Shown here: positions 1 to 8,014 of the stretch, piece by piece
Layout of the letters: every line of letters starts with the position of its first letter
Numbering within the stretch: the first letter of the stretch is position 1
Origin: Naegleria gruberi
Taxonomy: Eukaryota
NCBI GenBank assembly: GCA_000004985.1
Contig: GG739057.1
Length of the DNA: 8,014 nt
Reading direction: 5' to 3' (one strand)
Translations under genes and position numbers: made by a program
Notes under the pieces: model-generated
The model's input: only the letters and a program-made list of their open reading frames with translations
What the model was told of the DNA's origin: nothing
Database searches by the model: none

Positions 1-50
1 ATCCATACATTTATATTTCATTATTGAATTGTTTATATTATTTATATTTG

Positions 51-92
51 AATTATTTGTTGTATTATTTAAATTATTTGTTGTATTATTTA
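51..92. repeat. Perfect tandem duplication of a 21-bp unit, aattatttgttgtattattta (51-71 and 72-92). It lies in the 3' flank of the minus-strand ORF. The complement of the ORF's TAA stop is the last 3 nt of copy 2 (90-92).
   Basis: Direct reading: the two copies are identical and adjacent. Confidence 0.85.
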
Positions 93-1490
93 ATTATTAA
101 ATTTAGTATTATTAATATAAATAGAACAATTATTTCTAGATGGAAATATAATATTATCCATATCTTCATAAACATCAACAAATGAATGATCTAAATATAA
201 AATATCCCATGAAGATTTAATAATTAAAGTTAAATCCTTATTTTGTATATGAAAATTATCCAATTCACTTTGTGTCATTAATCTAGCATCATTGATCCAA
301 AATTTATTTGGATATCTTAAAAATGTAAATAATTCTGAAAATCTAAATGAAATTCTATTAGCAGTTCTTAATATATTTGTACCTTGTGAAATATTATTAA
401 TTGCAATAAAAGCAGATTTAGAACTTAATTGCATATCAATAAAAAACATTGTAATACATAAAATTGTAATAATAATTGTAATTAAAACAACTATTGATAT
501 ACTTGATTGAGGTTTTGATAAATAATTAATTTGTTTAATATCAATTTCTTTATCTATTTTTTTATCTAATAATTGATAAATTTTACCAAATATATCTTTA
601 CTAATTGTATTTGATATAAATTTAATACTTGATCTTAAATGTCTTAAATTATATAATGAAATAACAACAACTGTTGCAGCACATATAATATAAATAGAAA
701 TTGAAATTGAATAATAAATAATAAATTGATTTGATAAATTTGAAACTAATTGTTGATTTCTATTTAAAAATAAATCACAATATGCATCATAGGCATTTGA
801 ATGTTCTTTTCTATTTGACCAATAAAACATAAAATCTGAATTTATACTTGTTTGTTGATATAAATCTAAATTTGTATATTCTAAATAATTATTTGTATAT
901 TTAATTAATAAATCTGTAATTTCAGAAATGGATGAATTTCTACTTTGTGTATAATTTAAAGGTGATTTTGATATATTTGTATAATATAATACAGGTGAAT
1001 ATAATATATATATTGTATTTCTATAATCTTTTACCATTTCATTTGTAAATTTATTAATTGCTATATCTGTCAATTCTTTTAAAACATTATTATATAAATG
1101 TAATCTATTTTTATGTTCTTGATTAAATACATCAATAGATTGTATTGATGTTAATATATTTGTTGAATTTAATATATTTGATTTATATTTATCAAATAAA
1201 TAAATAAAATTTTGTTGAGTTCTAACTTCTCTTAATAAAAATCTAGGAATTGCTGTTGGCATACAATGATAATATGAAAATTGAATATTACTTGTCATTT
1301 CTTTTGAAAAACTAATACTCATTCCAATTCCAATAGTTAATACTATAAATGATAATATTGATAATATTATAAAAAATATTAAATGTGTTACATGATTTGT
1401 TGCTCTATTTAATGATGTTCTAAATTGATATTCTTTTTTTTGATATTGTGAATTTTCAATTCCATCAAAATCAGAATTATTTTCTAACAT
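90..1490 (-). CDS. Hypothetical membrane protein, 466 aa. Predicted layout: a short cytosolic N-terminus, TM1 (HLIFFIILSILSFIVLTIGIGMSI), a loop of about 210 aa with many N-x-S/T sequons, TM2 (FIIYYSISISIYIICAATVVVISLYNL), TM3 (ISIVVLITIIITILCITMFFI), then a C-terminal region of about 110 aa.
   Basis: A 1.4 kb open frame in roughly 80% AT DNA, where stop codons are otherwise very frequent. Codon usage is Dictyostelium-like (tta, aat, ggt, cca, tct). The ATG sits in an A-rich context (aatgaaATG). The hydrophobic stretches are read from the translation. No recognisable catalytic motif was found. Confidence 0.6.
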   Translation of the reverse strand: MLENNSDFDGIENSQYQKKEYQFRTSLNRATNHVTHLIFFIILSILSFIVLTIGIGMSISFSKEMTSNIQFSYYHCMPTAIPRFLLREVRTQQNFIYLFDKYKSNILNSTNILTSIQSIDVFNQEHKNRLHLYNNVLKELTDIAINKFTNEMVKDYRNTIYILYSPVLYYTNISKSPLNYTQSRNSSISEITDLLIKYTNNYLEYTNLDLYQQTSINSDFMFYWSNRKEHSNAYDAYCDLFLNRNQQLVSNLSNQFIIYYSISISIYIICAATVVVISLYNLRHLRSSIKFISNTISKDIFGKIYQLLDKKIDKEIDIKQINYLSKPQSSISIVVLITIIITILCITMFFIDMQLSSKSAFIAINNISQGTNILRTANRISFRFSELFTFLRYPNKFWINDARLMTQSELDNFHIQNKDLTLIIKSSWDILYLDHSFVDVYEDMDNIIFPSRNNCSIYINNTKFNN

Positions 1491-1577
1491 TTCATTATAA
1501 TATATTATTTAATGTAATATTATTTAAATTATTAAAATATGTATCATTTGTATTATTATTATTATTAGTATTTAAAT
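1491..1577 (-). other. An 87-bp spacer of about 95% AT between two same-frame ORFs. In the shared frame it contains four further stop codons. On the minus strand it has no GT dinucleotide and no AG, so it is not a canonical intron. It is either a very short intergenic region between tandem genes or an unresolved gene-structure or assembly problem.
   Basis: The reverse complement was translated by hand. 3599-1490 = 2109 = 3 x 703, so the two ORFs share a frame. Stops seen: taa, taa, taa, taa. The plus strand has no C across 1561-1660, so there is no GT on the minus strand there. Confidence 0.5.
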
Positions 1578-3599
1578 TTATATTATTATTATTATTAATA
1601 TTATTGAATTATTTATTATTTTATTATTAATATTATTATTTGAATTATTTAAATTAAAATTTGGAACAATTCTTTTTGTTTTTTTCTTTTTAAATTGTTT
1701 TTTAAATTGATTATTTGATAAAACTTGTTGATTTGATTGTAAATATAAAGTAGTAACTTTTTTAGATTCTTCTTCTTCAATAGAAGAGGCTTCATCATAC
1801 ATGTCAAAAGCCTTTTCCTTTTCAAATTTAATTTCTTCTAAATATTTAGCAAATGTTCTTAAAACAGTCTTATTATTACCATAATTAGCAATTAAACCAT
1901 TAAATATAATATCACATTCTCTTGTTAGAGAAGTTATTTGTTTGTTTAAACTTTCAATCTTATTAATTGAAATTGATTCTTGTAACATTTCTTTCCAAAA
2001 TGCTTTATGTAATGTCATGATTACAAAATGTTTCTTTTCTAATTTTAGTAATATATGTTTAATATCTAATACATTTCTACCATCTAAATCAATTAATGAT
2101 TCAATTTCTTTATTTCTTTCTAATAACCATAAACGTTGTAAAAAATTAGGTGATGATTTTCTACCTTTTTTTAATAATAATAATGCTTTTGTACATCCAT
2201 CTTGATCATTTAAATAATTTCCTAATAAAATTGATGAAATTAATAAAATATAAAAATTTTGAAATGTTTTTTGTGATGATAATCCCTTTACAAAACTTTT
2301 ACTAATTTCCAAATCATTTTCATTATTTTTTAAACATTTTGTACTAAATTTTAAATATAAATATAAATAATTTGTTAATTTTAAATCTTCAATTTGTTGT
2401 AAAATTGAACATGATTCTCTTTCAATTACATTTAATAAATCTTCATTTTCCATTTTAGATTCTGCATGATTTATAATTAAATTTTTAATTTGTGTTAATT
2501 TAATTTTTAAATAAATTTCAAATCCAATTAATCCAATTATAAAAAATAATAAAATACTACCAATATGCATACCAATTAATCCTAATCCAATATTATAATC
2601 TTTTTCAATATTAACATATATAGATATAATACCAGATATAGCACTTCCAATTGTAGCACAATTTACTCCAAAATAAATTGAATTTTCTAATCTATTATAA
2701 AATGGAATTGTAAATAAAAAATAAATTGTTAATAAAAATCTCATAATTAAAAATAAACTAGCTTGAATAATTAAATATTCTTTAGATACTATATTTAGTA
2801 ATAAATAAAATACTTGTTGTGATAAAATATCTAATAAATAAGTTGTAATATTATAACTATTAAATATTGTTTTACTTTTAACATTTTTATCTGTTATAGT
2901 AAATACAGTTATAATTAAACTTAAATTCATAATTATAAATGAAATACATGCAATTACCATAAATAATAAATTAATATTTCCATAACAAGCAATATTTGGA
3001 TATCTATATAAAACTTGTTTAGGAGTTGCAATTGACATTTCTTGTAAAATAACATTACTTGAATAATCACAATTTAAATATCCTAATAATAACCATGAAA
3101 TTGGTAAATGAAAAAATCCAATAATTCCATTTATAATTCTTGTTACTTGTTTAATTTTATTCCAATATTTACTCATTGTATATACACTTCTATATGATAT
3201 TAATAATAATATAAATTGTAATACAATTATTGTAAATATTATAGATGATAATATTATTGATACTATATATGGTAAGTAATCAAATCCAAATGTAATTGGA
3301 AAATTTAATGATCTTGCAATCCATTGTCCATATTCACCATAATTATATGTTGGTTGAATACCCATTACTAATATAGACCATGTAAAATATGATATTAAAA
3401 TTATATTTTTTAAAGTTTCCTTTTTTTTAGATTTTTCATTTAAATTTTGTAATGATAATAAAAATAGAAATAAACGTTCTTCAAATTTAGTAAATAATGA
3501 TATTTTATAAAAATCAGAAATTGAATTTGTACTATTAGATATCATACTACCTGTTTCATTTCTATATTCAAAATATGATTCATTCATACCATTATTCAT
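1578..3599 (-). CDS. Hypothetical multi-pass membrane protein. At least 8 hydrophobic helices fall in the first ~400 residues. They are followed by a soluble region of about 270 aa with charged and coiled-coil-like stretches (KMENEDLLNVIERESCSILQQIEDLKL) and a Lys/Asn-rich tail. The N-terminus is probably further upstream, see 3596-3940.
   Basis: A 2 kb ORF in AT-rich DNA with Dictyostelium-like codon usage. The TM segments are read from the translation. No Walker, cyclase or kinase motifs were seen. Confidence 0.65.
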   Translation of the reverse strand: MNNGMNESYFEYRNETGSMISNSTNSISDFYKISLFTKFEERLFLFLLSLQNLNEKSKKKETLKNIILISYFTWSILVMGIQPTYNYGEYGQWIARSLNFPITFGFDYLPYIVSIILSSIIFTIIVLQFILLLISYRSVYTMSKYWNKIKQVTRIINGIIGFFHLPISWLLLGYLNCDYSSNVILQEMSIATPKQVLYRYPNIACYGNINLLFMVIACISFIIMNLSLIITVFTITDKNVKSKTIFNSYNITTYLLDILSQQVFYLLLNIVSKEYLIIQASLFLIMRFLLTIYFLFTIPFYNRLENSIYFGVNCATIGSAISGIISIYVNIEKDYNIGLGLIGMHIGSILLFFIIGLIGFEIYLKIKLTQIKNLIINHAESKMENEDLLNVIERESCSILQQIEDLKLTNYLYLYLKFSTKCLKNNENDLEISKSFVKGLSSQKTFQNFYILLISSILLGNYLNDQDGCTKALLLLKKGRKSSPNFLQRLWLLERNKEIESLIDLDGRNVLDIKHILLKLEKKHFVIMTLHKAFWKEMLQESISINKIESLNKQITSLTRECDIIFNGLIANYGNNKTVLRTFAKYLEEIKFEKEKAFDMYDEASSIEEEESKKVTTLYLQSNQQVLSNNQFKKQFKKKKTKRIVPNFNLNNSNNNINNKIINNSIILIIIII

Positions 3600-3940
3600 A
3601 TTAGGATCACTTGATATATTTGATAATCTTCTATTATTAATATTAATACTATTATTATTATTATTATTATTATGATTATTATTATTAATAATAATGTATT
3701 ATTTATATGATGAGGTGAATTAATATGGTTAGTATTTGTATTATTATTAATATTAACATANTTTGGATGATTTAAATTAATAGTTGGTATTTGTGTATTA
3801 CTTGATGATGTTGTAATTGCTCCACTAATAACCAATTTACTTCCACCATTATTAATAGGATTGGAGGAGGAGGGTTGCTGACCACCATTACTAGTAATGA
3901 CAGGAGGAGTACTAGTTACGGCGAATTGAACACCATTCAT
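3596..3940 (-). CDS. Probable N-terminal coding part of the same membrane-protein gene (MNGVQFAVTSTPPVITSNGGQQPSSSNP...HINSPHHINN). It is in a different frame from 1578-3599. The frames meet inside an (aat)n poly-Asn tract and differ by -1/+2, which is consistent with a single-nucleotide indel. An ambiguous base (n) lies nearby at 3761.
   Basis: This segment is GC-richer and has good codon usage (ggt, cct, act, caa). The ATG is in an A-rich context (aagaATGaat). The 1578-3599 frame stays open upstream of its first Met, as ...YIIINNNNHNNNNNNNSININNRRLSNISSDPN-M, up to a stop at 3699-3701. The only GT..AG pair in the overlap region is 19 nt apart, too short for an intron. Confidence 0.45.
   Translation of the reverse strand: MNGVQFAVTSTPPVITSNGGQQPSSSNPINNGGSKLVISGAITTSSSNTQIPTINLNHPXYVNINNNTNTNHINSPHHINNTLLLIIIIIIIIIIIIVLILIIEDYQIYQVILI
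3640..3692. repeat. (att)n trinucleotide microsatellite on the plus strand, which is (aat)n on the minus strand. It encodes poly-Asn in the 1578-3599 frame and poly-Ile in the 3596-3940 frame.
   Basis: Direct reading. This is the typical Dictyostelium coding Asn repeat and a hotspot for indel errors. Confidence 0.8.
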
Positions 3941-4102
3941 TCTTACTATTTCTTAGAGAAGTTGTAGTAGAGATGATGCTAGTACTAATGATGATTGTCT
4001 AATTATGAATGCTTCTTCGTAGGAGTATTAGAGTGAATTTATTGTATAAGTTCTTCTTCAGTATTGCTGGGTAATTAGTAACAAGTAACAAATTGTACAC
4101 GT

Positions 4103-4114
4103 TTTGGCGCGAAA
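4103..4114. promoter_or_regulatory. Perfect palindromic E2F-type site, TTTGGCGCGAAA. This is the reverse complement of the classic DHFR and adenovirus-E2 TTTCGCGCCAAA. It lies about 165 bp upstream of the minus-strand ATG at 3940.
   Basis: The 12-mer is read directly at 4103-4114 within cacgTTTGGCGCGAAAtatt. A GC-only hexamer is very rare in this sequence context. Confidence 0.45.
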
Positions 4115-5191
4115 TATTCTCTTTTTTTTAAGGATTTCAAATATTCAAAAGAAGTGTATTGGCATCTATTTAACGACAATAAACCTCAAAATCGGAAGAG
4201 ACCAATTCATTGAGTATACTTGTTTGGATTCACGAATCATATTTGCTTCGGCACTTTAAGACCAATCAAAGAATTCATTATCAATAAGGATGAGGTGGTA
4301 GTCAGTTCAAGGCGGTTATTAAAACCTCCTTAGAATTGGATTTAAAATTCTTTCCTTTTGCCTAAAAATCTATACTTGAATGCATTATGAAATATATCAT
4401 GATTAACTTTTGATTGAAATAACTCATGTAACATGAAAAGTCAATGATTAAGGTTTAAATAGTTGTACCATTTGAATTGATCAACACTATAATGTTATCA
4501 ATAAATATTCAATCTCCCATTCTGACGCATTACTCTTAATAGAACTTTGAATATTCGTACGGAACATTGTCAGTCTTAATAAGAATATGTGTCATATTGT
4601 TTGTCCACACTATTGAAACAATGTATTATTATACCATTAATCAAACACACTTTATGTCATATAGATTGAACAATAACTCTTAATATTATTATTAAAGAAT
4701 GAAATTCATAAAGATAAAACACCATTTTCTATTAATTTTGAATGTTAACAATAAATATAATATGGTTTGATGATGATTCTCTTAATTAACTTGTAATTCT
4801 CTGAATATATTATTTTTCAATCACCAAAATTAAATATAGTATTACAATAAACATTACTAATATGGATGTTATAATATTAAAGTATAATATATTTACAAAT
4901 ATATTGAAAAAGATTCTTCTGCACTGTTTTTCAACTACATTACAACCAATCCTGTATAGAGATAGAGAGAGTGATTCATCACCGTCATTATTCTATCTCT
5001 CTCTGATATATGAAACTAACATTCAGTTCTACTGTAAATCAGAGGTCTTTGCCCTAAATGATCTCCTTAATAGTGCTCCACATTACAAACTCTCTCTCTA
5101 AGAGTCCATTAAAAAAGTGAGTGAACTGTTATTAAGGAATTGAGTACAAGAACACACTCCATTATATTCTTTCACTCTATAATATTTGTAT

Positions 5192-5215
5192 TATAAATCT
5201 CTGATAAAGAGATTT
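5192..5215 (+). promoter_or_regulatory. TATA-like box tataaat (5192-5198) overlapping a perfect 8-5-8 inverted repeat, AAATCTCT-gataa-AGAGATTT (5195-5215). The spacer carries a GATA core (tGATAAa). It is about 115-135 bp upstream of the putative histidine kinase ATG at 5329. The 9-mer TCTCTGATA also occurs at 5000-5008.
   Basis: Direct reading. revcomp(aaatctct) = agagattt. Confidence 0.4.
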
Positions 5216-5328
5216 TAAACAACATCATCAATCACCATCATCAATTATCATCTCAACAAGGAAACAAAATACTACATAATTAGCAATCATAATTTCTATT
5301 TTCCATTGTTGTGAACACACATTATAAA

Positions 5329-5374
5329 ATGTCTAGAAGGAATTCATCATCATTCAGTGGTGGTGGTGGTGTAG
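5329..5374 (+). CDS. Putative first coding nucleotides of the histidine kinase gene (MSRRNSSSFSGGGGV...). It runs straight into the N gap.
   Basis: ATG in aaaATG context downstream of a TATA-like box. An open frame with ggt-rich Gly codons. Its continuity with the exon at 6870 cannot be shown across the gap. Confidence 0.3.
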
Positions 5375-6782
5375 NNNNNNNNNNNNNNNNNNNNNNNNNN
5401 NNNNNNNNNNNNNNNNNNNNNNNNNNNNNNNNNNNNNNNNNNNNNNNNNNNNNNNNNNNNNNNNNNNNNNNNNNNNNNNNNNNNNNNNNNNNNNNNNNNN
5501 NNNNNNNNNNNNNNNNNNNNNNNNNNNNNNNNNNNNNNNNNNNNNNNNNNNNNNNNNNNNNNNNNNNNNNNNNNNNNNNNNNNNNNNNNNNNNNNNNNNN
5601 NNNNNNNNNNNNNNNNNNNNNNNNNNNNNNNNNNNNNNNNNNNNNNNNNNNNNNNNNNNNNNNNNNNNNNNNNNNNNNNNNNNNNNNNNNNNNNNNNNNN
5701 NNNNNNNNNNNNNNNNNNNNNNNNNNNNNNNNNNNNNNNNNNNNNNNNNNNNNNNNNNNNNNNNNNNNNNNNNNNNNNNNNNNNNNNNNNNNNNNNNNNN
5801 NNNNNNNNNNNNNNNNNNNNNNNNNNNNNNNNNNNNNNNNNNNNNNNNNNNNNNNNNNNNNNNNNNNNNNNNNNNNNNNNNNNNNNNNNNNNNNNNNNNN
5901 NNNNNNNNNNNNNNNNNNNNNNNNNNNNNNNNNNNNNNNNNNNNNNNNNNNNNNNNNNNNNNNNNNNNNNNNNNNNNNNNNNNNNNNNNNNNNNNNNNNN
6001 NNNNNNNNNNNNNNNNNNNNNNNNNNNNNNNNNNNNNNNNNNNNNNNNNNNNNNNNNNNNNNNNNNNNNNNNNNNNNNNNNNNNNNNNNNNNNNNNNNNN
6101 NNNNNNNNNNNNNNNNNNNNNNNNNNNNNNNNNNNNNNNNNNNNNNNNNNNNNNNNNNNNNNNNNNNNNNNNNNNNNNNNNNNNNNNNNNNNNNNNNNNN
6201 NNNNNNNNNNNNNNNNNNNNNNNNNNNNNNNNNNNNNNNNNNNNNNNNNNNNNNNNNNNNNNNNNNNNNNNNNNNNNNNNNNNNNNNNNNNNNNNNNNNN
6301 NNNNNNNNNNNNNNNNNNNNNNNNNNNNNNNNNNNNNNNNNNNNNNNNNNNNNNNNNNNNNNNNNNNNNNNNNNNNNNNNNNNNNNNNNNNNNNNNNNNN
6401 NNNNNNNNNNNNNNNNNNNNNNNNNNNNNNNNNNNNNNNNNNNNNNNNNNNNNNNNNNNNNNNNNNNNNNNNNNNNNNNNNNNNNNNNNNNNNNNNNNNN
6501 NNNNNNNNNNNNNNNNNNNNNNNNNNNNNNNNNNNNNNNNNNNNNNNNNNNNNNNNNNNNNNNNNNNNNNNNNNNNNNNNNNNNNNNNNNNNNNNNNNNN
6601 NNNNNNNNNNNNNNNNNNNNNNNNNNNNNNNNNNNNNNNNNNNNNNNNNNNNNNNNNNNNNNNNNNNNNNNNNNNNNNNNNNNNNNNNNNNNNNNNNNNN
6701 NNNNNNNNNNNNNNNNNNNNNNNNNNNNNNNNNNNNNNNNNNNNNNNNNNNNNNNNNNNNNNNNNNNNNNNNNNNNNNNNNN
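5375..6782. other. Assembly gap or masked region of 1408 Ns.
   Basis: Direct reading. The track ORFs spanning it are translation artifacts. Confidence 0.99.
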
Positions 6783-6869
6783 CAATTTTTTAGATTAATA
6801 ATATCAGATATAAATCCAAGTTATTCATGGATGACGATTGGATTTATGGCAAGTACAGTTCATAATTGA

Positions 6870-7181
6870 TCATCATTTATATTACATAATTCAATTGCAT
6901 TAGGTGATAATGGATTATCAACTGCATTATGGACAATTTTACCATTAAATATTTTATCAATTGGTACTAGTTTAATTTTATCTTTATATTTTAATAGATG
7001 GTCTGAATCATTTGGTGTTTTAACAATGTTAACTATATTTAATTTAGTTTTTAATACTACTTCTTATAAATTAATGGAAAAATTAAATATGATGAATATA
7101 ATGACTGGAAGATTAAAAGATGCAAATAAGAGTAAAAATTCATTAGTTTCTTCTATTTCACATGAATTTCGTTCTCCTTTA
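6870..7181 (+). CDS. Histidine kinase exon, partial at its 5' end, with an unresolved boundary. It contains a predicted TM helix (LSTALWTILPLNILSIGTSLILSLYF), a linker of about 40 aa (MEKLNMMNIMTGRLKDANKSKNSLVSS), and the HisKA H-box ISHEFRSPL with the phosphorylatable His at 7161-7163.
   Basis: H-box matches the consensus SHELRTPL. The frame is open from 6870. An in-frame TGA lies just upstream at 6867-6869. Confidence 0.8.
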
Positions 7182-7281
7182 GTAGGTTTTTTTATTTAAT
7201 ATTTAATTAATTTAAATTTAATTTAATAATTTAATATTTTAATTTATTTTAATATTTTAATTTATATTTAATATTTTAAAG
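7182..7281 (+). other. Spliceosomal intron of 100 bp. Donor is GTAGGT and acceptor is AAAG, with about 95% AT. It is phase 0 and placed immediately after the H-box ...SPL.
   Basis: Without splicing, the frame hits TAA 5 codons after PL. Splicing 7181 to 7282 gives PL|MSISGCIELLLDTKLTEDQIQYLKTI. This aligns residue-for-residue with the canonical HisKA sequence PL-NGIIGMSELLLDTxLTxEQ. Confidence 0.8.
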
Positions 7282-8014
7282 ATGAGTATAAGTGGATGTA
7301 TAGAATTATTATTAGATACAAAATTAACAGAAGATCAAATACAATATTTAAAAACTATTGGATGTTGTAGTTCAATATTATTAACATTAATAGAAGATAT
7401 ATTACAATATTCTAAATTAGAAAAAGGTAATTTAGAAATTGCCAATTCAATTGAAGATTCTTCAAATCATTCTATATTTTCATTAGGTGAATGTATTGAA
7501 CATGTCAAAAGTATTACAACTACCTATGCTCAAAATTTTAATGTTAAAATTAATGTACAAATTAGTAAATTTATTCCTACTTTTGTAATTGGTGAAAGTG
7601 TTAGATTACAACAAGTTTTAATTAATTTATTAACAAATGCTGTTAAAGCATCAAATTCAAATGGTATTGTTACTTTAAAAGTTGAAACTATTGAAGATTT
7701 AAATGAAATTAATTTAAATAATAATATAAATTTAAATGAAAATAATAATAATTTAAATAATAATAATTTAAATTTAAATATAAATGATAAAAAACAATTA
7801 GTAACATTTAAAATAATAGATAATGGTAAAGGTATACCTAAAAATGTACAAGAATTATTATTTAAACCATTTTTTAGTGGATTTATAAATTCATCAACAA
7901 ATTCCAAATCAGCAGTGATGGGAACTGGATTAGGATTATCAATTGCTAAAAAAATAGTTAATTATAATTTTAAAGGTGAATTATTATATGAATCTAATTA
8001 TATACCACCTAATA
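7282..8014 (+). CDS. Histidine kinase exon. It covers the remainder of the HisKA dimerisation helix and an HATPase_c domain. N-box LINLLTNAVKAS has its Asn at 7636-7638. G1 box is IIDNGKGIP, 7819 onward. F box is FKPFF. G2 box is GTGLGLSIAKKIV, 7921 onward. The exon is truncated by the window end, and any receiver domain would lie downstream.
   Basis: The translation has no stops through 8013 and all canonical sensor-kinase ATP-lid motifs are present in order. The specific Dhk paralog cannot be assigned from this fragment. Confidence 0.9.
   Translation, partial: MSISGCIELLLDTKLTEDQIQYLKTIGCCSSILLTLIEDILQYSKLEKGNLEIANSIEDSSNHSIFSLGECIEHVKSITTTYAQNFNVKINVQISKFIPTFVIGESVRLQQVLINLLTNAVKASNSNGIVTLKVETIEDLNEINLNNNINLNENNNNLNNNNLNLNINDKKQLVTFKIIDNGKGIPKNVQELLFKPFFSGFINSSTNSKSAVMGTGLGLSIAKKIVNYNFKGELLYESNYIPPN
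7699..7794 (+). repeat. Asn/Leu-rich low-complexity insertion (LNEINLNNNINLNENNNNLNNNNLNLNINDKK) inside the ATP-binding domain, between the N-box and the G1 box.
   Basis: Direct translation. The nucleotide sequence is built from aat/tta repeats. Confidence 0.8.

What the first reader, a model, noticed from the sequence alone, without database searches (positions are those of the whole stretch)
6870..8014. Histidine kinase gene (hybrid sensor kinase type) whose sensor region is entirely hidden by the N gap
The post-gap sequence is clearly a sensor histidine kinase: a TM helix, the H-box SHEFRSPL, a conserved-position intron, and an HATPase_c domain with N/G1/F/G2 boxes. A plausible ATG lies at 5329 just before the gap. 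The sequence that would define the input/sensor domain is all N. Paralog identity and input domain therefore cannot be assigned. The kinase has a TM helix only about 40 residues before the H-box, with no obvious HAMP or PAS module in between. That constrains which family members it can be.
Basis: partly seen in the sequence, partly recalled or inferred. Interest (0 to 1): 0.5.

Follow-up and report, generated by a model that had tools for sequence, protein, structure and literature searches.

The report
Partial Naegleria six-helix membrane histidine kinase
The sequence after the gap is a real but incomplete sensor histidine kinase gene of a family found only in Naegleria and its relative Willaertia, not a Dictyostelium kinase; half of its membrane sensor is readable, so it is an ordinary gene on an oddly A+T-rich scaffold.

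Summary
The kinase call is correct. Exon 1 (6783-7181), a 100-nt GT..AG intron (7182-7281) and exon 2 (7282-8014, running off the window) encode HisKA (E 4.5e-17) and HATPase_c (E 1.2e-18), with the H, N, G1, F and G2 boxes.

1. The window is a whole 8014-bp scaffold filed as Naegleria gruberi (XP_002668456.1, partial). The closest named relatives are N. lovaniensis, N. fowleri, N. gruberi and Willaertia magna hybrid kinases, not Dictyostelium Dhk.
2. The sensor is not entirely hidden. The frame is open from the gap edge at 6783. The start at 6870 only reflects one in-frame TGA (6867-6869). It sits at a conserved Leu, one base from TTA, 84 nt from the contig end. The end of transmembrane helix (TM) 3 and TM4-6 of a six-helix membrane module are readable.
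3. The paralogue can be assigned: the subclade of N. lovaniensis C9374_011514.

The hybrid architecture (a C-terminal receiver) is inferred, because the six longer relatives have one. The ATG at 5329 is plausible in length but untestable.

The intron position is shared with two Naegleria genes.

One thing is unexplained: the genes have a third-codon-position G+C content (GC3) of about 5%, in a genus with 33-37% GC.

This is an ordinary member of a known kind.

The parts
5329..5374 (+). Candidate start codon and first 15 codons (MSRRNSSSFSGGGGV) running into the gap. Assignment to the kinase gene is unproven.
   Evidence: It is the only + strand frame with an ATG that is open into the gap. GC3 is 3/15 against 5% in the kinase exons (P = 0.04). 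It has no alignable similarity to the relatives' N-termini, which are themselves not conserved.
5375..6782 (.). Assembly gap (1408 N). By homology it should hold the low-complexity N-terminal tail, the TM1-TM2 hairpin, a variable low-complexity loop and most of TM3.
   Evidence: N run. Relatives have 209-470 residues upstream of the residue that matches the gap edge. The invariant motifs of the hidden part are EKxHQ, P, YxYL, TDY, M, C and N. The helices come from the AlphaFold model of P0002.
6783..7181 (+). Exon 1, visible part. It holds the end of TM3 (6783-6803), TM4 (6816-6902), TM5 (6912-6989), TM6 (6999-7067), the linker helix (7068-7133) and the start of HisKA with the H-box SHEFRSPL (7158-7181; His 7161-7163).
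   Evidence: The frame is open from the gap edge. The segment is 79% identical to P0002 and 69% to N. lovaniensis over the TM part. The HMMER search with 6870-7145 gave E = 1e-39 to 6e-12, to Naegleria, Willaertia and metagenome proteins only.
6867..6869 (+). In-frame TGA inside TM4 at a conserved Leu position. Probably a base-call error (TTA to TGA), otherwise a nonsense mutation.
   Evidence: The subclade-A relatives P0002 and N. lovaniensis P0122 read STVHNLSS / STIHNLSS here (subclade B has Tyr). All 49 Leu codons of this gene are TTA. The TGA is 84 nt from the contig end. It is the only stop in 377 codons.
7182..7281 (+). Spliceosomal intron, phase 0, 100 nt, GT..AG, 4% GC, with an internal 26-nt tandem repeat.
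   Evidence: Splicing restores SHEFRSPL|MSISGCIELLL, identical to the relatives. An intron at the same codon boundary occurs in N. lovaniensis (L005 11255-11417, 163 nt) and in the N. gruberi paralogue on L002 (108 nt). It is absent in L001. The GenBank model uses the same splice.
7282..8014 (+). Exon 2, which runs off the scaffold. It holds the rest of HisKA (to 7428) and HATPase_c (7594-7995), with the N box 7603-7653, an Asn-rich ATP-lid insert 7702-7794, G1 7813-7839, F 7858-7875 and G2 7921-7959.
   Evidence: Pfam. Coordinates. The closest solved structures are kinase cores such as 7p8e, GacS, RetS and HK853. Relatives continue for 203-268 more residues, including a receiver domain.

Best explanation
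The post-gap sequence is the middle part of a single-intron gene for a membrane-embedded hybrid sensor histidine kinase. The family appears restricted to Heterolobosea (Naegleria and Willaertia). This copy belongs to the subclade of N. lovaniensis C9374_011514. It is a paralogue of N. gruberi XP_002677574.1.

Shown:
- Class I HisKA and HATPase_c domains with all catalytic boxes.
- Three and a fraction of six predicted transmembrane helices, directly upstream of the kinase core.
- No HAMP, PAS or any other known input domain.
- A shared intron position.

Inferred from relatives:
- The gap hides a disordered N-terminal tail, TM1, TM2, a low-complexity loop and most of TM3.
- The missing 3' end encodes the end of the ATPase domain, a linker of roughly 100-135 residues and a receiver domain.

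Inferred mechanism:
- The input module is the six-helix bundle itself. Its extramembrane loops are short, and polar residues inside the helices are invariant: TDY in the TM1-TM2 hairpin, STxHN in TM4 and NxxxNxxS in TM6.
- The stimulus is therefore sensed within or at the membrane. It could be a small ligand, an ion or a membrane property; which one is unknown.
- The signal passes along TM6. TM6 is predicted to continue as one unbroken helix through the linker into the phospho-acceptor helix carrying His127 (7161-7163).
- That would alter autophosphorylation in a dimer. The phosphoryl group would go to the protein's own receiver Asp, then to an HPt protein and a response regulator. RegA-type cAMP phosphodiesterase is one candidate known in N. 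gruberi.

The TGA at 6867 is most likely a base-call error near a contig end.
For: - Pfam HisKA 4.5e-17 and HATPase_c 1.2e-18.
- 100% match to GenBank XP_002668456.1 'predicted protein, partial [N. gruberi]' on an 8014-bp contig.
- An exhaustive search of 1.84 billion representatives with the 92-residue TM segment found five clusters with E < 1e-10. They are P0002 (metagenome), N. lovaniensis C9374_011514, W. magna ABK040_014271, a JGI metagenome protein, and N. fowleri FDP41_007567 (N. gruberi XP_002677574.1 is 83% identical to the last).
- Identity to the window is 65-70% in subclade A and 52-57% in subclade B.
- All five family proteins scanned hit HisKA, HATPase_c and Response_reg.
- The intron position is shared.
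- No Pfam input domain at E <= 10.
- The AlphaFold model of P0002 (pLDDT 71; 70-88 in the TM region) has six TM helices, with helix 306-377 running from TM6 through His360.
- There are 50 invariant columns in the TM module across 6 relatives.
- TGA reasoning.
- RegA and many sensor kinases in N. gruberi: PMC3906536. Multi-helix sensor regions in most of the 24 N. gruberi kinases: PMC6324907.
Against: - No receiver domain, no N-terminus and no TM1-TM3 can be seen in the window itself.
- The TGA could be real, making this copy a pseudogene.
- The structure model is of a relative, built from a shallow alignment in the TM region. It is a monomer, so the continuous-helix and six-TM statements are predictions.
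- No ligand or stimulus is indicated by any result.
- The scaffold's composition (GC3 about 5%) does not match authentic Naegleria DNA (GC3 about 36%). Its attribution to the N. gruberi nuclear genome is therefore not secure.
- The upstream neighbour is not syntenic with N. lovaniensis.
Confidence: 0.8

Rival explanations
1. This is a Dictyostelium-type (Dhk/AcrA-like) hybrid kinase whose input domain lies wholly in the gap, with a single TM helix before the H-box and translation starting at 5329.
For: The A+T content is extreme and there are Asn-rich inserts, as in Dictyostelium. The neighbouring gene hits Pfam TPR_TmcB, a family named after a Dictyostelium protein. An ATG at 5329 exists.
Against: - The contig is deposited as N. 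gruberi.
- No hit that carries a source name among the best 120 protein hits is from Dictyostelium.
- The TM segment matches only Naegleria, Willaertia and metagenome proteins in an exhaustive search.
- The intron position is shared with Naegleria genes.
- At least three TM helices, not one, are readable after the gap.
Confidence: 0.03
2. It is a pseudogene or dead copy. The TGA at 6867 is real, so this A+T-rich copy no longer makes a full-length kinase.
For: The in-frame TGA is in the deposited sequence. The GenBank model starts downstream of it, at Met108. This copy has diverged more from its N. lovaniensis counterpart (65%) than the subclade-B pair N. gruberi and N. fowleri have from each other (83%).
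Against: There is only one stop in 377 codons where 38 are expected, and no frameshift against the relatives. Every catalytic motif and the family-invariant TM residues that can be seen in the window are intact. The TGA is one base from the TTA used for all 49 Leu codons. It lies 84 nt from a contig end, where Sanger base calls are weakest.
Confidence: 0.15
3. The scaffold is not a faithful piece of the N. gruberi nuclear genome. It could be a contaminant from an A+T-rich heterolobosean. It could also be a chimeric assembly joined through (TAT)n/(AAT)n repeats at 3632-3760. Either way, 5329 and the central stretch may have nothing to do with the kinase gene.
For: - GC3 is 3-9% in all gene bodies and the intron is 4% GC. 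This compares with GC3 36-39% and introns of 22-30% GC in L001, L002 (99% = N. gruberi) and L005.
- Naegleria genomes are 33-37% GC (PMC12482156, PMC9928731).
- The central stretch 3800-5374 is mostly 20-38% GC in 100-nt windows, like normal Naegleria non-coding DNA.
- The switch is abrupt, next to an ambiguous base (3761) inside a simple repeat.
- No synteny with N. lovaniensis.
Against: - By descent the gene is unmistakably of the Naegleria lineage.
- The two 5' ends that flank the central stretch have an intermediate GC3 of 17-20%. That looks more like a gradient than a join.
- Two independent misjoins would be needed.
- As far as I know, the sequenced strain was axenic and clonal (from memory, not checked here).
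Confidence: 0.25
4. It is a bacterial histidine kinase from contamination or recent transfer.
For: Beyond the handful of closest (eukaryotic) relatives, nearly all named hits among the best 120 are bacterial kinases at 28-35% identity.
Against: There is a spliceosomal intron at a position shared with eukaryotic orthologues. The closest relatives, at 52-70% identity, are annotated Naegleria and Willaertia nuclear genes on contigs of 185 kb to 1 Mb. The JGI metagenome scan gave mostly 21-28% identical matches (one short 47% fragment), and IMG/VR gave none.
Confidence: 0.01

Closest known systems
Naegleria lovaniensis C9374_011514 (XP_044554683.1, 952 aa; locus L005), and the metagenome protein P0002
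   Same: - 65% (N. lovaniensis) and 70% (P0002) identity over the visible 377 residues.
- Identity to P0002 by region: 79% in the TM part and 94% in the linker plus dimerisation/phospho-acceptor (DHp) domain.
- The N. lovaniensis gene has a phase-0 intron at the same position after SHEFRSPL.
- The same TM4-TM6 motifs.
   Different: - The window copy has GC3 of 5% against GC3 of 39% in the coding sequence of L001 (the N. lovaniensis locus is 37-38% GC overall), and more FYMINK residues (40% against 29-30%).
- It has an Asn-rich ATP-lid insert and an in-frame TGA.
- It lacks both ends.
- The upstream neighbour differs from that in N. lovaniensis.
N. gruberi XP_002677574.1 'histidine kinase/response regulator' (1066 aa), N. 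fowleri FDP41_007567 and W. magna ABK040_014271 (subclade B)
   Same: The same architecture: a low-complexity tail, six TM helices, HisKA, HATPase_c, a linker and a receiver domain. They are 52-57% identical to the window. The N. gruberi gene has the intron at the same position.
   Different: They form a distinct subclade. The TM part is only 36-43% identical, and the TM4-TM5 loop has CxxHS instead of G(D/E)xG(L/V)S.
The N. gruberi multi-helix sensor kinases surveyed by Kabbara et al. 2018 (PMC6324907; 24 kinases, Excavata groups II-IV), for example XP_002672168.1
   Same: They are eukaryotic, mostly membrane-anchored by several hydrophobic helices, and have no recognised sensing domain. The DHp sequence is similar (LLxLIEDILQ). 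XP_002672168.1 is 34-36% identical in the kinase core.
   Different: The TM modules are not detectably homologous (hhalign probability 0.7%). I could not see which group the paper assigns this partial gene to, or whether it was counted, because no supplement is held.
Bacterial intramembrane or membrane-embedded sensor kinases (DesK, the LytS 5TMR-LYT type, the AgrC type). This comparison rests on my own knowledge, not on a tool result.
   Same: The working principle: several TM helices, no large extracytoplasmic domain, and the last TM helix coupled to the phospho-acceptor helix by a short helical linker without HAMP or PAS.
   Different: There is no sequence or Pfam relationship of the TM module. 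DesK, LytS and AgrC use HisKA_3 or HPK10-type cores, whereas this one is a classical HisKA. This kinase is also a eukaryotic hybrid kinase.
Dictyostelium Dhk hybrid kinases
   Same: They are hybrid HisKA, HATPase_c and receiver kinases in an amoeba. Both have A+T-rich coding sequence with Asn-rich inserts.
   Different: No specific relationship was found. No named Dictyostelium protein is in the best 120 hits, and the TM module is absent from everything except Heterolobosea and metagenomes.

Membership tests
Class I (HisKA-type) sensor histidine kinase | HisKA dimerisation/phospho-acceptor domain with the conserved His in an H-box | tested here: met
   Pfam PF00512, E 4.5e-17, 62 bits (cut-off 26.9), profile positions 2-66 of 66. 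SHEFRSPL is at 7158-7181 and the His at 7161-7163.
Class I (HisKA-type) sensor histidine kinase | HATPase_c catalytic domain with N, G1, F and G2 boxes | tested here: met
   PF02518, E 1.2e-18, 68 bits (cut-off 26.4), profile positions 2-95 of 111; the window ends before the domain does. Boxes: NLLTNAVKAS, DNGKGIP, FKPFF and GTGLGLS. The solved kinase cores 7p8e, 7z8n and 4jas match at E 1e-22 to 1e-17.
Class I (HisKA-type) sensor histidine kinase | ATP-dependent autophosphorylation on the His | not testable with these tools
   This needs the purified cytoplasmic domain and labelled ATP.
Hybrid histidine kinase | Receiver (Response_reg) domain on the same polypeptide, C-terminal to the kinase | tested here: inconclusive
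   The scaffold ends inside HATPase_c. All five family proteins scanned hit Response_reg (four at E about 1e-16 to 1e-18 above the curated cut-off, the truncated P0124 at 2.9e-06 below it). L001 encodes one after a frameshift.
Heterolobosean six-TM hybrid kinase family (N. lovaniensis C9374_011514, N. gruberi XP_002677574.1, N. fowleri FDP41_007567, W. magna ABK040_014271) | Homologous TM4-TM6 module with its invariant residues (W, IGF, ST, HN, S, IL, N ... W ... S, G ... R, E, FG ... N, N, S) | tested here: met
   phmmer with 6870-7145 gave E 1e-39, 2e-36, 4e-16, 8e-14 and 6e-12 to family members only. The invariant columns are listed.
Heterolobosean six-TM hybrid kinase family | TM1-TM2 hairpin (EKxHQ...P...YxYL...TDY) and TM3 | not testable with these tools
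   It lies in the 1408-N gap. Only the last 7 residues of TM3 (QFFRLII) are visible.
Heterolobosean six-TM hybrid kinase family | Phase-0 intron immediately after SHEFRSPL | tested here: met
   Window 7182-7281, N. lovaniensis L005 11255-11417 and L002 36-143 (99% identical to the N. gruberi paralogue). The feature is not universal, because L001 lacks it.
Dictyostelium Dhk/AcrA kinase set | Closer to Dictyostelium kinases than to other kinases, or a shared input domain | tested here: not met
   No named Dictyostelium protein is in the best 120 hits. The exhaustive search with the input region found none. I could not run a direct pairwise comparison with Dhk sequences, because none were held.
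HAMP- or PAS-linked sensor kinases, and the known multi-TM input domains (5TMR-LYT, 7TMR-DISM, MASE, HisKA_7TM) | A Pfam match for such a domain between the membrane and the H-box, or in the membrane region | tested here: not met
   hmmscan at E <= 10 on the window's pre-H-box region gave nothing. On the N-terminal 357 residues of P0002 it gave only DUF7608, at E = 0.17 and below cut-off.
Other N. gruberi multi-helix kinases (XP_002672168.1, XP_002680543.1 and XP_002682149.1 type) | A shared TM input module | tested here: not met
   hhalign of the two TM-module alignments gave probability 0.7% and E = 0.08. BLASTP similarity starts only at the linker.

The most novel reading that the evidence does not exclude
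The scaffold could be a genuine, long-lived, extremely A+T-rich compartment of the N. gruberi genome. In it, intact genes under selection have drifted to GC3 of about 5% and introns to 4% GC. The shared 5' intergenic stretch keeps the normal Naegleria composition. Such compartments would be fragmented and under-represented in the Sanger assembly. That would be within-genome compositional heterogeneity of a kind I did not find mentioned for Naegleria in the papers I read. As a lesser point, the six-helix module would be a lineage-specific type of membrane-embedded kinase input domain that is not in Pfam.
Probability: 0.3. Interest if true: 0.55.

Novelty: new member of a known kind. Interest (0 to 1): 0.25.

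Why it matters
For the kinase itself, little changes. Naegleria is already known to have about two dozen mostly membrane-anchored histidine kinases with unrecognised input regions (PMC6324907). This gene is already deposited as a partial model.

The useful outcomes are corrections:
- The public model XP_002668456.1 starts at Met108 and so omits 107 residues of conserved membrane domain.
- The gene can be placed in a defined Naegleria/Willaertia six-helix hybrid kinase family, and its missing parts predicted.
- The Dictyostelium-like look of the DNA is misleading.

If the A+T-rich composition proves to be a genuine part of the N. gruberi genome, it would point to an unrecognised compositional compartment. 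It would also point to a class of sequence that the reference assembly captures poorly.

Tried and rejected
1. Word-index protein searches with the upstream neighbour, both the whole 648 residues and the TPR part, returned only the gene's own GenBank model or nothing. The neighbour gave no taxonomic evidence. The same tool also missed the N. lovaniensis, N. fowleri and W. magna relatives of the kinase, which the exhaustive search later found.
2. Synteny test. tblastn of the three minus-strand ORFs against the 23-kb N. lovaniensis locus gave no significant hit.
3. Gap filling from public data failed. The JGI metagenome scan gave mostly 21-28% identical (bacterial-type) kinases (one short fragment at 47%). 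IMG/VR gave nothing for the kinase or the neighbour. PHROGs gave nothing meaningful. I therefore dropped the idea of a giant-virus or endogenous-virus origin.
4. Authentic N. gruberi NEG-M flanking DNA could not be fetched for P0006 or P0132, because neither is on record. I used L002, which is 99% identical to the N. gruberi protein, as the baseline.
5. tRNA and Rfam scans of the whole window found nothing, including in the higher-GC centre.
6. Foldseek against the PDB matched only the kinase core. It gave no analogue for the TM bundle.
7. hhalign against the TM module of other N. gruberi kinases found no homology.
8. The TGA as part of a small intron or as a reassigned codon was rejected. The alignment is colinear with no gap at that point. 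The relatives have Leu there. The other ORFs in the window end in TAA and contain no in-frame TGA.
9. The Fritz-Laylin 2010 genome paper and the supplement of Kabbara et al. are not held. A literature search for TmcB was uninformative.
Full report
**What is in the window.** The window has a run of 1408 N at 5375-6782 and a single N at 3761. After the gap, the frame that starts at 6783 is open to 7181 except for one TGA at 6867-6869. A 100-nt GT..AG intron follows (7182-7281, 4% GC). A second exon then runs from 7282 off the end of the window. The spliced 377-residue product hits Pfam HisKA (E 4.5e-17) and HATPase_c (E 1.2e-18, profile positions 2-95 of 111), both well above the curated cut-offs.

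The motifs lie here:
- H-box SHEFRSPL at 7158-7181, with the His at 7161-7163.
- N box at 7603-7653.
- G1 box at 7813-7839.
- F box at 7858-7875.
- G2 box at 7921-7959.

The frame holds 1 stop in 377 codons, where base composition predicts 38. The off-frames of the two exons hold 15-44 stops each.

**Where the observation needs correcting.** The finding starts at 6870 only because of the TGA at 6867-6869. The 28 codons between the gap edge and the TGA are open in the same frame. The whole stretch aligns without gaps to relatives. The two subclade-A relatives read Leu at the TGA position (STVHNLSS in P0002, STIHNLSS in N. lovaniensis). All 49 Leu codons of this gene are TTA, so the TGA is one substitution away. 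It lies 84 nt from a contig end. A base-call error is the most likely cause, and a recent nonsense mutation is the alternative. The GenBank model for this gene (EFC35712.1 / XP_002668456.1, 252 aa, 'partial') begins at Met108, downstream of the TGA. It therefore omits the membrane part.

**Which organism and which family.**
- The window is an entire 8014-bp contig deposited as Naegleria gruberi.
- The word-index search gave one close relative: P0002, 66% identical, from an ENA metagenome contig with 39% GC. It also gave a fragment, P0003, that is 99% identical to N. gruberi XP_002677574.1.
- I then ran an exhaustive HMMER search of 1.84 billion cluster representatives. The query was the 92-residue membrane segment alone (6870-7145, no H-box). 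Only five clusters scored E < 1e-10:
  - P0002.
  - N. lovaniensis C9374_011514 (952 aa).
  - Willaertia magna ABK040_014271 (1079 aa).
  - A JGI metagenome protein.
  - N. fowleri FDP41_007567 (1105 aa).
- In a family alignment the window groups with P0002 (70%) and N. lovaniensis (65%). The W. magna, N. fowleri and N. gruberi XP_002677574.1 proteins form a second subclade (52-57%).
- No hit that carries a source name among the best 120 is from Dictyostelium.

The Dictyostelium framing came from the A+T-rich, Asn-rich look of the sequence, and it is not supported.

**The intron.** The N. lovaniensis orthologue has its single intron at exactly this codon boundary...SHEFRSPL | gtaagt...tag | MSISGC..., at L005 11255-11417. 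L002, which carries a gene 99% identical to the N. gruberi paralogue, has the same arrangement with a 108-nt intron. L001 lacks the intron. 'Conserved-position intron' is therefore right, but the conservation is among Naegleria genes.

**How much of the sensor is hidden.**
- Hydropathy analysis and an AlphaFold model of P0002 were used. The model has mean pLDDT 71, and 70-88 across the membrane region. They give six transmembrane helices.
- Mapped onto the window, the end of TM3 (6783-6803), TM4 (6816-6902), TM5 (6912-6989) and TM6 (6999-7067) are readable.
- This part is 79% identical to P0002, which is more conserved than the ATPase domain (47-54%).
- The whole six-helix module has 50 invariant columns across six relatives. 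They include polar residues inside helices: STxHN in TM4 and NxxxNxxS in TM6.
- By homology, the gap should hide four things:
  - A non-conserved, low-complexity N-terminal tail.
  - A TM1-TM2 hairpin with the invariant EKxHQ...P...YxYL...TDY.
  - A loop of variable length.
  - Most of TM3.
- Relatives have 209-470 residues upstream of the gap-edge position.
- Pfam found no known domain in this region in any relative, even at E <= 10.
- The module is not detectably related to the membrane module of another group of N. gruberi kinases (hhalign probability 0.7%).

In the model, TM6 continues as one helix (residues 306-377 of P0002) through the linker and the phospho-acceptor His.

**Hybrid type and the 5329 start.**
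- The window ends about 15 residues before the end of HATPase_c, so no receiver domain can be seen.
- All five family proteins scanned hit Response_reg.
- L001 encodes a receiver after an assembly frameshift.
- Relatives continue 203-268 residues beyond the window's last residue.
- 'Hybrid' is therefore a well-supported inference, not an observation.
- The ATG at 5329 opens the only + strand frame that runs into the gap.
- With the nominal gap length, it would put 484 codons before the gap edge. That is just above the family range.
- Gap sizes are estimates, the N-termini do not align, and the 15 codons are less A+T-biased than the exons (P = 0.04).
- I cannot tell whether 5329 is the start.

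**Likely mechanism.**
- Shown: a classical HisKA/HATPase_c core preceded directly by a multi-helix membrane domain.
- Inferred: the six-helix bundle, which has only short loops and invariant intramembrane polar residues, is itself the input module. It would sense something within or at the membrane.
- Inferred: the signal travels along the TM6-linker-DHp helix and changes autophosphorylation of His127 in a dimer.
- Inferred: the phosphoryl group passes to the protein's own receiver Asp and on through an HPt protein to response regulators.
- N. gruberi has a RegA-type receiver-phosphodiesterase and many sensor kinases (PMC3906536), which makes cAMP control one plausible output.
- The stimulus is unknown, and nothing I ran points to one.
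- From my own knowledge, the working principle resembles bacterial membrane-embedded sensors such as DesK, LytS and AgrC. There is no sequence relationship, and those proteins use different kinase cores.

**Unexplained: composition.**
- All gene bodies in the window have GC3 of 3-9%, and the intron is 4% GC.
- L002, which is 99% N. gruberi at the protein level, has GC3 of 36% and a 22% GC intron.
- The N. lovaniensis locus is 37% GC, with a 30% GC intron and 33-35% GC intergenic DNA.
- Published Naegleria genomes are 33-37% GC (PMC12482156, PMC9928731).
- The window protein is correspondingly enriched in FYMINK residues: 40% against 29-33% in relatives.
- Yet the central non-coding stretch (3941-5328) is 28% GC. 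The two 5' ends that flank it have GC3 of 17-20%.
- Putatively neutral DNA is therefore more G+C-rich than the synonymous sites of the flanking genes. The switch at about 3760-3800 is abrupt. It lies next to an ambiguous base, inside a (TAT)n repeat.
- The genes are intact and their motifs conserved, so this is long-term evolution under A+T pressure, not random hypermutation.
- Candidate explanations are a genuine A+T-rich compartment that the Sanger assembly captured poorly, a contaminant from an A+T-rich heterolobosean, or a repeat-mediated misassembly.
- By descent the kinase belongs to the Naegleria lineage, whichever of these is true.
- No support for a viral origin was found.

**Verdict.** This is an ordinary, already deposited, partial member of a known kind: the multi-helix hybrid histidine kinases of Naegleria (PMC6324907). 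The organism guess, the 'entirely hidden' sensor and the 'unassignable paralogue' do not. The composition of the scaffold is the only surprising feature, and it needs read-level data to resolve.

Noticed in passing
window 1-3760 and 6783-8014, compared with 3762-5374: Gene bodies have GC3 of 3-9% and the intron is 4% GC. The central non-coding stretch is 28% GC (3941-5328), and the two flanking 5' ends have GC3 of 17-20%. Authentic Naegleria DNA (L002, L005) has GC3 of about 36% and introns of 22-30% GC. This does not fit a uniform mutational bias and is not explained.
   Followed up: partly
window 90-3940, minus strand: A large multi-pass membrane protein gene lies divergent from the kinase. 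It is made of ORFs at 3940-3596, 3599-1578 and 1490-90, which are probably joined across a low-complexity frame change near 3600-3760 and an intron near 1491-1577. The middle ORF hits Pfam TPR_TmcB (E 7e-17). The GenBank model EFC35714.1 (NAEGRDRAFT_76630, 367 aa) covers only part of it. No homologues could be retrieved, and there is no counterpart next to the N. lovaniensis kinase gene.
   Followed up: partly
window 3761 and 3632-3755: A single ambiguous base sits at the edge of a (TAT)n, 9-nt-period simple repeat, exactly where the composition switches from about 13% to about 38% GC. This is a possible misassembly point.
   Followed up: no
window 7702-7794: An Asn-rich insert (NEINLNNNINLNENNNNLNNNNLNLNINDKK) lies in the ATP-lid loop of the ATPase domain. 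It is encoded by a 15- and 21-nt tandem repeat. Relatives have a loop of variable length and ordinary composition at this spot.
   Followed up: partly
window 7191-7279: The intron consists largely of a degenerate tandem repeat (periods 5, 8 and 26). Its donor is GTAGGT, whereas the homologous introns in N. lovaniensis and L002 have GTAAGT and GTATGT.
   Followed up: no
window 7086-7958 (GenBank model XP_002668456.1): The deposited partial protein begins at Met108 (MTGRLKDANK...). It omits 107 upstream residues that are homologous to TM3-TM6 of the orthologues. The annotation could be extended to 6783.
   Followed up: yes
L001 about 1990-2000: The closest relative's metagenome contig has a frameshift inside the G1-F region of the ATPase domain. 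It splits the gene into a 550-aa product and a 253-aa product, and the second carries the receiver domain. This is probably an assembly error.
   Followed up: partly
window 4960-5025: A (GA)n / (TC)n inverted repeat (gagagagagtgattcatcaccgtcattattctatctctctctg) lies in the central non-coding stretch. tRNA and Rfam scans found nothing there.
   Followed up: partly
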